Position numbers: made by a program. From NCBI RefSeq assembly GCF_016903815.1, contig NZ_CP069973.1: a stretch of DNA of 64,000 nt. One strand, given 5' to 3'. Numbering within the stretch: the first letter of the stretch is position 1; the number at the start of each line of letters is the position of its first letter. The DNA is from Escherichia coli (GTDB lineage: Bacteria; Pseudomonadota; Gammaproteobacteria; Enterobacterales; Enterobacteriaceae). Positions 3,001-6,000 of the stretch are shown here, in pieces.

Positions 3001-6000
3001 TCAGGAAAATATGGGACGTTTTATCAATCAGAGGAAATATGTTACAGTTCAGCTTTGTATCAAATGACGTTGTTATGACTTACGACGGTGACAGCGGAGA
3101 ACAAATAATTTGGGTTTGGGAGAGTTTAAATAAATTTCAAACAGTATGCATTTCACGCATTTTTAACTTTCAACTCCAGGACTTGAGAAACCCACCGTCA
3201 ACCGTTCAGGATTTTAATGATTATGAATATTCCTTTAATTTTGGCACGCTTAATAATGAATACATAACAGTTCCGGGACGGATTCTAAGCATTAATCGAG
3301 ATGTCCTTATACATAAGTCCATCAAGCTTGAAAGGAAAGTATTTGCGTCAGAACGCAACGTCTCCATTTTTGGTCGGCTTTCAAAACTACTCGATCACAC
3401 TAATCCCATCATCATCGGAGGAGATAAGTCGGAAGCTATACCAAAAAGCGTATTCCAGGAGTTGCAAAGTAAATTCCCCAACACAGGGGAACTGGATCGC
3501 TATGCTAATGCAAGGGTTCACGCTATTCTCGCAGGTTATCTTGATGGTATGAAAGATGCTCGCGAACGGTATGAACATTACCTAAACAGAAAAACAGTGA
3601 TCAGAAAAACCGACAAACTGGATTTAGAAGTTTTAAATAAGCTCGAAATTGAGAAATATACACTCATAAGAGACATTATCCAGGATGCGTTGAATAACAA
3701 AACTAACTTGTCTGAAGATGACTGGCAGAGCCTGATGATACCCTTCATCACATTACTTTTTCCAAAATATATCAAGGTCCTCGAGAAGGTTAAAATTTTC
3801 GACTATTACTCTAATCCTTCGGCTAAAACAAATCGGTTTATAGACATTGCACTGGTGGATGCAAACGGCAACCTTGATATCATCGAAGTCAAAAAGCCGT
3901 TTGATGATAAGATCCTTCGCAAGACGCCCTATCGCGACAACTATATTCCTACATCAGAACTTAGCGGCGGTATTATGCAGGCTGAAAAGTATATTTTTCA
4001 TTTATCTAAATGGGGTGTTAAGGGTGAAAAAGAGCTTACGAATGCCTACAAGAATTCTCTGCCAGCGGGAATGTGTATTCGTATATCTAACCCAAAAGCC
4101 ATCATCATTGTCGGGCGCGATCAGATAGCGAACGGTAACATGACCGACGGTCAGTTGCTTGATTTTGAGATAATCAAACGTAAGTACGCCAACATGATAG
4201 ACATATTGACGTACGACGACCTGTTGCGTCGACTTAATAATACGATTGAAGCATTGAAAGGTTGAATGTCCATGAGGTTCACACCCACAACGGGGAGCAG
4301 GTCACTTCCTATTGTTTGATTGACATACCATAACGTCTGCTTTTGGCTCAAAGCAGACTGTCTGATTTGATAGCTTTTGGGCTATGTAAATTGTCAGTTG
4401 AAAAATGAGTGAGTACAAATCAGGACGGGCGGGCGAGTTGCCCGCCTTTTCTTTAATCTGTTGTTTCATCCACTGACCAGCCAGGTCAAATAGCGTCTCA
4501 TGCTCTGCACAACAGAAAATAGTTGCACCCATTAACCACGGAGTTAAACGGATGAGCGACTATCATCATGGCGTGCAGGTGCTGGAGATTAACGACGGCA
4601 CCCGCGTCATTTCCACCGTATCCACGGCCATTGTCGGCATGGTCTGCACGGCCAGCGATGCGGATGCGGAAATCTTCCCCCTCAATAAACCGGTACTGAT
4701 TACCAATGTGCAGAGCGCAATTGCAAAGGCTGGTAAAAAAGGCACGCTGGCGGCATCGTTGCAGGCCATCGCCGACCAGTCAAAACCGGTCACCGTTGTC
4801 GTACGTGTGGAAGACGGCACCGGCGACGACGAGGAAACGAAACTCGCGCAGACCGTTTCCAATATCATCGGCACCACCGACGAAAACGGTCAGTACACCG
4901 GACTGAAAGCCCTGCTGGCGGCGGAGTCGGTAACCGGTGTTAAACCGCGTATTCTCGGCGTGCCGGGACTGGATACCAAAGAGGTGGCTGTTGCACTGGC
5001 ATCAGTCTGTCAGAAGCTGCGCGCTTTCGGGTATATCAGCGCATGGGGCTGTAAAACCATTTCCGAGGTGAAAGCCTACCGTCAGAATTTCAGCCAGCGT
5101 GAGCTGATGGTCATCTGGCCGGATTTCCTCGCATGGGATACGGTCACCAGTACCACCGCCACCGCGTATGCCACCGCCCGTGCGCTGGGGCTGCGCGCTA
5201 AAATCGACCAGGAGCAGGGCTGGCATAAAACGCTGTCCAATGTCGGGGTGAACGGTGTTACCGGCATCAGCGCCTCTGTATTCTGGGATTTGCAGGAGTC
5301 CGGTACTGATGCTGACCTGCTTAACGAGTCAGGCGTCACAACGCTGATTCGCCGTGACGGTTTCCGCTTCTGGGGTAACCGTACCTGCTCTGATGACCCG
5401 CTGTTCCTCTTTGAAAACTACACCCGCACCGCGCAGGTGATGGCCGACACGATGGCTGAGGCGCACATGTGGGCGGTGGACAAGCCCATCACCGCAACGC
5501 TGATTCGCGACATCGTTGACGGCATCAATGCCAAATTCCGTGAGCTGAAAACAAACGGCTATATCGTGGATGCGACCTGCTGGTTCAGCGAAGAATCCAA
5601 CGATGCGGAAACCCTCAAGGCCGGAAAACTGTATATCGACTACGACTATACACCGGTGCCTCCTCTTGAAAACCTGACCCTGCGCCAGCGTATTACCGAT
5701 AAATACCTGGCAAATCTGGTCACCTCGGTTAACAGCAATTAAGGAGCCTGACCGATGGCAATGCCGCGCAAACTCAAGTTAATGAACGTCTTTCTGAACG
5801 GCTACAGCTATCAGGGCGTCGCGAAGTCCGTCACGCTACCAAAACTGACCCGTAAGCTCGAAAACTATCGCGGTGCGGGGATGAACGGCAGCGCACCGGT
5901 AGACCTCGGCCTTGATGACGATGCGCTGTCAATGGAGTGGTCGCTCGGTGGCTTCCCGGATTCGGTTATCTGGGAGCTTTACGCCGCAACCGGTGTGGAT

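What the first reader, a model, noticed from the sequence alone, without database searches (positions are those of the whole stretch)
4330..4460. Two hairpins between the cargo gene and the sheath gene insulate cargo transcription from the late operon
A hairpin at ~4335-4358 and a strong GC-rich hairpin with U-tract at ~4427-4454 both read as + strand terminators. The cargo gene would therefore be transcribed from its own promoter, independent of the Ogr-activated late operon, as expected for a lysogen-expressed defence gene.
Basis: seen in the sequence. Interest (0 to 1): 0.3.

Follow-up and report, generated by a model that had tools for sequence, protein, structure and literature searches.

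The report
Conserved terminator before P2 sheath promoter
Of the two hairpins after the prophage's Shedu defence gene, the second is an ordinary, well-conserved transcription terminator that belongs to the P2 phage backbone and sits just upstream of the tail-sheath promoter, while the first is part of an already published inverted repeat and is probably not a terminator.

Summary
Both hairpins exist at the stated coordinates in a P2-like prophage, between the Shedu gene sduA (3039-4265) and the sheath gene FI (4552-5742).

Hairpin 2 (4427-4447 plus UUUUCUUU to 4454) is a textbook intrinsic terminator and ranks 4th of 2664 hairpin sites in the window. An equivalent GC hairpin with a T-tract sits at the same place, just before the Ogr half-site of pF, in 55 of 67 distinct relatives. 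Those relatives carry plus-strand cargo, minus-strand cargo or no cargo at all; in the empty ones it directly follows the stop codon of G. Stem sequences differ between lineages while pairing is kept. It is therefore the backbone terminator at the right edge of the Z/fun hotspot, not a cargo feature.

Hairpin 1 (4335-4358) is the inner end of the 'right inverted repeat' annotated in GenBank AJ512677 (P2-EC31, 99% identical). It has a poor U-tail, is broken in most relatives and shows no covariation.

The claim that cargo transcription is insulated from FI is supported by inference. The claim that the cargo is independent of the late programme is not. No plus-strand terminator separates G from sduA, so read-through from the upstream late V operon into sduA is expected. 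This is ordinary biology and low interest.

The parts
2221..2748 (+). Gene G (tail fibre assembly), last essential gene of the late V operon
   Evidence: Pfam Caudo_TAP, 7e-37; homologous to P2/Wphi G
2721..2833 (.). Left inverted repeat of the Z/fun hotspot; its inner end (2809-2832) is the mirrored, degenerate copy of hairpin 1
   Evidence: AJ512677 annotation transferred with offset +2718. Arms 2801-2832 and 4336-4367 are 84% complementary. Conserved in about 40 loci with unrelated cargo.
2903..2931 (+). Predicted sigma-70 promoter of the cargo gene (-35 TTGGAT, 17-nt spacer, -10 TAATAT); unverified
   Evidence: Regulatory features in AJ512677. Below the 9/12 threshold of the scan; 7/12 by my own reading of the sequence.
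3039..4265 (+). Cargo gene sduA (Shedu nuclease, 408 aa)
   Evidence: PADLOC SduA 1e-219 and Pfam SduA_C. Near-identical to PDB 8PS4, E. coli SduA. RefSeq names it 'Shedu immune nuclease family protein'.
4292..4310 (+). Weak hairpin 27 nt after the sduA stop; contains the recurrent 12-mer GGGAGCAGGTCA (also at 2864-2875)
   Evidence: z = -0.24; D3; rank 304
4334..4424 (.). Right inverted repeat of the Z/fun hotspot (backbone flank)
   Evidence: AJ512677 annotation. 81-94% identical in loci with 30 or more different cargos in either orientation.
4335..4358 (+). Hairpin 1: palindromic inner end of the right inverted repeat; probably not a terminator
   Evidence: Only 68.6% of cells are paired across 29 relatives, the central pair is broken in 19/29, and there is no covariation. 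T-tail 1.9, rank 82.
4427..4454 (+). Hairpin 2 plus U-tract: intrinsic terminator at the right edge of the hotspot; ends V-operon and cargo transcription
   Evidence: rank 4 of 2664. Positional equivalent in 55/67 distinct relatives with 32 distinct stems. 94% paired with 2 compensatory pairs in 28 close relatives. Follows the G stop directly in empty loci.
4459..4484 (+). Ogr/activator binding region of the late promoter pF (by transfer from P2)
   Evidence: NC_001895 misc_feature 17555-17583, mapped through alignment A4
4526..4528 (+). Predicted transcription start of the F operon (FI, FII, E, T, U, D)
   Evidence: NC_001895 feature 17626-17628, mapped through A4
4552..5742 (+). FI, tail sheath
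   Evidence: Pfam Phage_sheath_1 and related domains

Best explanation
Context: the region is the right border of the Z/fun (G-FI) cargo hotspot of a P2-like prophage.

Hairpin 2: with its U-tract (4427-4454) it is a Rho-independent terminator belonging to the phage backbone.
- It stops all rightward transcription that arrives from gene G and from whatever cargo is present.
- In the lysogen that means transcripts from the cargo's own, predicted promoter.
- During lytic growth it means read-through of the Ogr-activated V operon (V-W-J-I-H-G), which here continues through sduA because nothing terminates it earlier.
- The terminator ends 4 nt before the Ogr-binding region of pF. The F operon (FI to D) is therefore started only by Ogr at pF and is shielded from upstream transcription.

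Hairpin 1: it is not a dedicated terminator. It is the palindromic inner end of the right arm of the inverted repeat that brackets the hotspot in most E. coli P2-like phages. At most it acts as a weak pause or an RNA 3'-end-stabilising hairpin in this particular phage.

Shown: the sequence features, position, conservation and compensatory changes of hairpin 2; the identity of hairpin 1 with the annotated inverted repeat; the absence of an upstream terminator.

Inferred: actual termination, the activity of the cargo promoter, and read-through from the V operon.
For: - Hairpin 2 is an 8-9 bp G-C stem with a 5-nt loop and UUUUCUUU, about -17 to -20 kcal/mol. It ranks 4 of 2664 in the window.
- Of 67 distinct pF-upstream regions from 80 IMG/VR loci plus P2 and Wphi, 55 have a GC hairpin with a T-tract ending 92-127 nt (mostly 97-108 nt) before the FI ATG, directly before TGTTGT.
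- Those hairpins comprise 32 distinct cores, including unrelated stems: GGCGGGC/GCCCGCC, AAGCCCTCC/GGAGGGCTT, AAGCCCCG/CGGGGCTT, CGCCGTGG/CCACGGCG and ACGGGC/GCCCGT.
- Compensatory G-C to A-U and G-C to U-A changes occur within the E. coli group, where 94% of cells are paired.
- In seven loci with a 124-132 nt G-FI spacer, the hairpin follows the G stop codon directly.
- Its stability does not depend on cargo orientation: the median is -16.8 kcal/mol for both, p = 0.80.
- The same right-flank haplotype as in the window occurs with a different, minus-strand cargo in L039.
- The pF elements annotated in P2 map to 4459-4484 and 4526-4528.
- Hairpin 1 lies inside the 'Right inverted repeat' of AJ512677, which is 99% identical to the window.
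- No plus-strand terminator-like site lies between 2749 and 3038, and that segment folds no better than shuffles.
- An ogr gene is present at about 10805-11155.
Against: - No transcript data were available, so termination efficiency and read-through are not measured.
- In P2 itself the homologous hairpin is degenerate (-10 to -11 kcal/mol, z about 0). The P2 record instead annotates the V-operon terminator next to fun(Z) on the left side. The element can therefore be dispensable when another terminator is present.
- 12 of 67 relatives lack it; in the one checked (L009) a serine-recombinase gene abuts pF. Phages can evidently tolerate its absence.
- Rho-dependent termination in the 290-nt untranslated G-sduA gap could limit late read-through into sduA.
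- In this phage hairpin 1 is a perfect 9-bp stem, stronger than in most relatives, so partial termination or pausing there cannot be excluded.
Confidence: 0.78

Rival explanations
1. One reading: both hairpins are terminators of the cargo cassette. They make sduA an autonomous, lysogen-expressed unit that is independent of Ogr-driven late transcription.
For: Both hairpins are on the plus strand downstream of sduA. A promoter is predicted upstream of the ORF in AJ512677. By established knowledge, the P2 moron genes old, tin and fun are expressed in lysogens.
Against: Hairpin 2 is present in phages with no cargo and with minus-strand cargo. Hairpin 1 is part of the backbone inverted repeat, has a poor U-tail and is not structurally conserved. 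No terminator separates the late gene G from sduA.
Confidence: 0.12
2. Hairpin 1 and its mirrored copy in the left flank (7-bp arms, 10-bp spacer) are core sites of a site-specific recombination system that exchanges or inverts cargo cassettes at the Z/fun hotspot. This is the hypothesis of Nilsson et al. 2004. On this view the hairpin acts as DNA, not as RNA.
For: The inverted arrangement is annotated in AJ512677 and detected here. The palindromes GTCCGCT-N10-AGCGGAC sit where flank homology to other cargos decays. There are 37 cargo clusters among 48 loci, all between the same flanks. A review states the repeats 'enable site-specific recombination' (PMC8987985).
Against: No recombinase is linked to the site. 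No cargo was found in both orientations among the 48 loci. Homology does not stop at one sharp point; it continues about 50 nt further in several loci. Ordinary homologous recombination in the conserved G, inverted-repeat, pF and FI flanks would also swap cargos.
Confidence: 0.15
3. Hairpin 2 is primarily a DNA element of the pF promoter, such as a protein-binding or curvature/UP-like element next to the Ogr site, rather than an RNA terminator.
For: It ends 4 nt from the activator site, and this spacing to TGTTGT is conserved.
Against: The stem sequence is replaced by unrelated sequences in other lineages while pairing and the T-tract are kept. That pattern is expected for an RNA hairpin and not for a sequence-specific DNA site. 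12 of 67 relatives have pF without it.
Confidence: 0.05
4. The left and right inverted repeats pair with each other in read-through late RNA. This would form a long-range duplex that brackets the cargo and is processed, for example by RNase III, separating cargo RNA from late mRNA.
For: The two arms are 32 nt long and 84% complementary, and both lie on the same predicted late transcript.
Against: No covariation was detected. Each arm prefers local hairpins in MFE folds. Complementarity outside the 32 nt is weak. The arrangement is equally present with minus-strand cargo.
Confidence: 0.03

Closest known systems
Rho-independent (intrinsic) terminators of P2-family late operons, e.g. the 'putative rho-independent terminator for V operon' annotated in P2 NC_001895 at 15639-15666
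   Same: A GC-rich stem-loop followed by a U-tract on the late strand, downstream of G and upstream of pF. It has the same role, ending the V operon before the separately activated F operon.
   Different: In P2 the annotated terminator lies on the left side, next to the 3' end of the minus-strand fun(Z) cargo. The element studied here lies at the right border, adjacent to the Ogr site. Its P2 homologue is degenerate and unannotated.
Inverted repeats flanking the Z/fun (TO) region of P2-like coliphages (Nilsson, Karlsson and Haggard-Ljungquist 2004; GenBank AJ512677, P2-EC31)
   Same: Hairpin 1 lies inside the annotated 'Right inverted repeat'. The window is 99% identical to that record across 2719-4581.
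   Different: None for the repeat itself. The record's ORF1 is frameshifted relative to the intact sduA here.
P2/P4 defence hotspots (Rousset et al. 2022, PMC9122126) and Shedu in the Z/fun locus (Loeff et al. 2023, bioRxiv 10.1101/2023.08.10.552762)
   Same: A single-gene Shedu system sits as cargo between G and FI of a P2-like prophage. The protein is near-identical to the structurally solved EcSduA.
   Different: In the passages I read, Loeff et al. expressed SduA from an arabinose-inducible promoter, and a term search of Rousset et al. found no mention of terminators. I found no analysis of the terminators or transcription units of this locus.
Terminator-insulated moron cassettes of lambdoid phages (promoter-gene-terminator units, Juhala/Hendrix concept; from general knowledge)
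   Same: An AT-rich accessory gene with a predicted promoter of its own, followed by a strong terminator inside a late gene cluster.
   Different: Here the terminator is not part of the moron but a pre-existing backbone element. The moron also lacks an upstream terminator, so it is insulated on one side only.

Membership tests
Intrinsic (Rho-independent) terminator: hairpin 2 | GC-rich stem of about 5-14 bp with a 3-8 nt loop | tested here: met
   8-9 bp with 7 G-C pairs and a 5-nt loop; -16.8 to -20.1 kcal/mol
Intrinsic (Rho-independent) terminator: hairpin 2 | U-rich tract immediately 3' of the stem | tested here: met
   UUUUCUUU; T-tail score 3.7-4.2; rank 4 of 2664 sites
Intrinsic (Rho-independent) terminator: hairpin 2 | Structure conserved in homologous positions, with sequence change that keeps pairing | tested here: met
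   55/67 relatives and 32 distinct stems; 94% paired with 2 compensatory pairs
Intrinsic (Rho-independent) terminator: hairpin 2 | RNA 3' ends generated at the U-tract in vivo or in vitro | not testable with these tools
   No transcript data held; literature searches found none
Intrinsic (Rho-independent) terminator: hairpin 1 | U-rich tract immediately 3' of the stem | tested here: not met
   The tail is UGUCUGAUUU; T-tail score 1.9; rank 82 of 2664. It also fails a stricter tail criterion.
Intrinsic (Rho-independent) terminator: hairpin 1 | Structure conserved in homologues | tested here: not met
   68.6% of cells paired, central pair broken in 19/29, and covariation below the shuffled mean
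Inverted repeats of the P2 Z/fun hotspot (Nilsson 2004) | Located between G and FI, flanking the variable cargo in inverted orientation | tested here: met
   AJ512677 features map to 2721-2833 and 4334-4424; arms 2801-2832 and 4336-4367 are 84% complementary
Inverted repeats of the P2 Z/fun hotspot (Nilsson 2004) | Conserved across phages that carry unrelated cargo | tested here: met
   Both flanks were detected in about 40 loci spanning more than 30 cargo clusters
Site-specific recombination site | Cognate recombinase and a defined crossover point; products such as inversion | tested here: inconclusive
   No inverted cargo copies in 48 loci. The homology boundary is gradual, not sharp.
Ogr-dependent late promoter pF | Homology to the mapped P2 activator site and start site at the same distance from FI | tested here: met
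   Alignment A4 maps the P2 features to 4459-4484 and 4526-4528; an ogr gene is present

The most novel reading that the evidence does not exclude
The 7-N10-7 palindromes at the inner ends of both inverted repeats (hairpin 1 being the right one), together with the recurrent GGGAGCAGGTCA module just inside them, could be sites of a dedicated, still unidentified cassette-exchange mechanism. That mechanism would load defence genes into the P2 Z/fun hotspot. It would turn the 2004 'site-specific recombination' hypothesis into a defined, testable site.
Probability: 0.12. Interest if true: 0.6.

Novelty: new member of a known kind. Interest (0 to 1): 0.15.

Why it matters
The practical value is in annotation and in engineering P2 hotspots. 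The strong terminator belongs to the phage, not to the cargo. Any plus-strand cargo inserted between G and this terminator becomes a 3' extension of the late V operon while the tail operon stays protected. This affects how lysogenic and lytic expression of hotspot defence genes such as Shedu should be interpreted. It also defines which flanks must be kept when cloning such genes 'with native regulation'. It does not reveal a new mechanism.

Tried and rejected
- **Rfam scan of 2600-4700:** the only hit was a sub-threshold L20_leader match (26 bits against a gathering score of 58.7) caused by the hairpins. I rejected it as chance.
- **Small RNA ending at hairpin 2:** reading the conserved right repeat by eye, I found no convincing promoter. 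The TTGATA/TAAATT pair has a spacer of only 14 nt. I did not pursue this further.
- **Minus-strand ORF 4302-4532 (76 aa):** an ORF of at least 60 aa is present in only 9 of 79 distinct upstream regions, and the frame is broken by indels. I rejected it as a gene.
- **Relaxed selection on hairpin 2 with minus-strand cargo:** P2 suggested this, but there is no difference (median -16.8 kcal/mol in both groups, p = 0.80).
- **Cargo inversion between the inverted repeats:** there are no minus-orientation matches of 200 nt or more among 48 loci.
- **hix/gix, dif and integron attC sites:** from memory of their consensus sequences, hairpin 1 has the opposite polarity of A/T runs and lacks GTTRRRY cores. 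I made no formal test.
- **ERIC element:** only a 10-nt coincidence (GAGCTTACAT) with the consensus recalled from memory; not pursued.
- **Primary literature:** Nilsson 2004, Odegrip 2006 and Haggard-Ljungquist 1992 are not held in the library. Literature searches found no transcriptome of a P2 lysogen.

Full report
**Context**

Window 1-11200 is the late/tail part of a P2-like (Peduovirus) prophage. Its genes are:
- H, 195-2219
- G, 2221-2748
- a 408-aa cargo gene, 3039-4265
- FI sheath, 4552-5742
- FII tube, 5755-6273
- T, 6750-9197
- U, D and ogr (about 10805-11155), followed by a host pflB-like gene

The cargo is the Shedu nuclease SduA (PADLOC 1e-219, Pfam SduA_C). It is near-identical to the solved E. 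coli SduA, PDB 8PS4. Loeff et al. note that Shedu occurs in the Z/fun locus of P2 prophages. The exact cassette is present in 52 of 5426 complete E. coli genomes, and its flanks in 1627.

**Observation**

Both hairpins are real.
- Hairpin 1 (4335-4358) has 9 bp, -12.2 kcal/mol and z = -3.6.
- Hairpin 2 (4427-4447) has 8-9 bp, 7 of them G-C, followed by TTTTCTTT. It folds at -17 to -20 kcal/mol with z = -3.9.

The simple pattern scan is not enriched over shuffles (12 found against 10.7 expected), so I scored every hairpin in the 64-kb window on both strands. The score combines stem energy with a T-tail term. The formula is of the d'Aubenton-Carafa type, recalled from memory and used with ViennaRNA energies, so only the ranks are meaningful. 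Hairpin 2 ranks 4th of 2664. Hairpin 1 ranks 82nd, with a T-tail of 1.9 against 3.7-4.2.

**What hairpin 1 is**

GenBank AJ512677 is the 'P2-EC31 proviral Z-region' from the Nilsson et al. 2004 study. It is 99% identical to window 2719-4581. Its annotated features, transferred to window coordinates, are:
- a left inverted repeat, 2721-2833
- a -35/-10 pair, 2903-2908 and 2926-2931
- ORF1
- a right inverted repeat, 4334-4424

Hairpin 1 is the inner end of the right repeat. Its mirrored and here degenerate copy is at 2809-2832; the arms 2801-2832 and 4336-4367 are 84% complementary.

Both flanks are conserved in about 40 related loci that carry more than 30 unrelated cargos in either orientation. 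In an alignment of 29 right flanks, the 3' arm of hairpin 1 belongs to the highly conserved flank. The 5' arm lies where homology decays. Only 68.6% of cells are paired, the central pair is broken in 19 of 29 sequences, and covariation is below the shuffled mean. The perfect 9-bp stem in this window is therefore a minority state and not a conserved RNA structure. A review summarises the 2004 proposal that these repeats enable site-specific recombination (PMC8987985). The primary paper is not held in the library.

**What hairpin 2 is**

I fetched 80 P2-like loci by FI homology and added P2 and Wphi. The G-FI spacer ranges from 124-132 nt (seven 'empty' loci) to 4857 nt.
- Of 67 distinct pF-upstream regions, 55 have a GC-rich hairpin plus T-tract ending 92-127 nt (mostly 97-108 nt) before the FI ATG, immediately before the TGTTGT of pF.
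- In empty loci this hairpin follows the stop codon of G directly, for example L006...CAATAA-ATAC-AGGCGGGCGGATTGCCCGCCT-TTTCTTT.
- There are 32 distinct core hairpins, including unrelated stem sequences in more distant lineages.
- Within 28 close relatives, 94% of cells pair and two pairs show compensatory changes.
- Its stability does not depend on cargo orientation: the median is -16.8 kcal/mol for both, p = 0.80.
- The window's exact variant also occurs with a different, minus-strand cargo in L039.

Hairpin 2 is therefore a backbone element. It is the terminator that ends rightward transcription before pF, with the inverted repeat-cargo-inverted repeat module inserted between G and it.

Transferring the P2 annotation through an alignment places the activator (Ogr) site at 4459-4484 and the F-operon start at 4526-4528. 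The U-tract therefore ends 4 nt before the activator site.

There are two caveats:
- In P2 itself the homologous hairpin is degenerate, and the record annotates a V-operon terminator on the left side next to the minus-strand fun(Z).
- 12 of 67 relatives lack the hairpin. In those regions the sequence abutting pF looks like the C-terminal end of a recombinase; for L009, Pfam confirmed a serine-recombinase gene ending just before pF.

**Interpretation**

The further inference, that the cargo is independent of the Ogr-activated late programme, does not follow. No plus-strand terminator-like site lies between the G stop (2748) and the sduA start (3039), and that segment folds no better than shuffles. 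Across the related loci, hairpin 2 is usually the only strong plus-strand terminator in the whole G-FI spacer.

The most likely picture has three parts:
- In the lysogen, sduA is transcribed from its own promoter. That promoter is predicted but weak (7/12 to consensus), and transcripts end at hairpin 2.
- After induction, the Ogr-driven V operon reads through sduA to the same terminator.
- pF then starts the tail operon independently.

Rho-dependent termination in the 290-nt untranslated gap cannot be excluded.

**Other checks**

Rfam gives nothing real. The minus-strand ORF 4302-4532 is not conserved. No cargo occurs in both orientations among the 48 loci. No transcript data for P2 lysogens were found.

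**Verdict**

Hairpin 2 is an ordinary intrinsic terminator of the P2 backbone. Hairpin 1 is part of a published inverted repeat whose function is still unproven. Novelty and interest are low. The only open thread is whether the flanking palindromes and a recurrent 12-mer mark a real cassette-exchange site.

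Noticed in passing
window 2864-2875 and 4293-4304; L035 and L047 right ends; L053 spacer 795-828; L013 and L016 spacer position 116: The 12-mer GGGAGCAGGTCA occurs twice in direct orientation just inside both inverted repeats of this cassette. It recurs exactly or nearly so at cargo edges in other, unrelated cassettes. In L053 it pairs with its inverted copy to form a 10-bp terminator hairpin between convergent ORFs. In several loci the left flank continues about 50 nt beyond the annotated repeat, and L035 has that extension inverted at its right end. The ancestral inverted repeat therefore seems to have been longer than annotated.
   Followed up: partly
L008, L009, L014, L024, L031, L032, L041, L055-L057, L062-L066, L076 (upstream of FI): Relatives that lack hairpin 2. 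Most of them (not L008 or L076) show a coding end of the type ...STLYKKFP... running to within a few tens of nt of pF, with no recognisable terminator in between. In L009, Pfam identifies a serine recombinase/invertase there (Resolvase plus HTH_7).
   Followed up: partly
L001 (AJ512677) 321-1409 versus window 3039-4265: The 2004 GenBank ORF1 (362 aa) is frameshifted after about residue 320 relative to the intact 408-aa SduA here. This is either a sequencing error or a pseudogene in that strain.
   Followed up: yes
L069 and L072, first 110 nt after the G stop and the end of the spacer: In these more distant relatives, G is followed by a terminator and (in L069 at least) a pF-like sequence. Then come one to three plus-strand ORFs, then a second terminator and pF. 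This looks like a duplicated terminator-promoter unit around extra late genes.
   Followed up: no
window 4370-4385: A small hairpin, ATAGC-TTTTGG-GCTAT, in the middle of the right inverted repeat is 96% paired across 29 relatives. It is almost invariant in sequence, so conservation says nothing about structure.
   Followed up: partly
window 10805-11475: ogr is the last phage gene before a host pflB-like gene on the minus strand. The right prophage end (attR) should therefore lie at about 11.2-11.4 kb. Terminator-like hairpins flank it, at 11164-11191 (+) and 11410-11435 (-).
   Followed up: no
window 6557-6578: A terminator-like hairpin with a TTTTTGTCGC tail lies on the plus strand inside the E/E' region of the tail operon, near the expected -1 frameshift site of E+E'. 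It was not examined.
   Followed up: no
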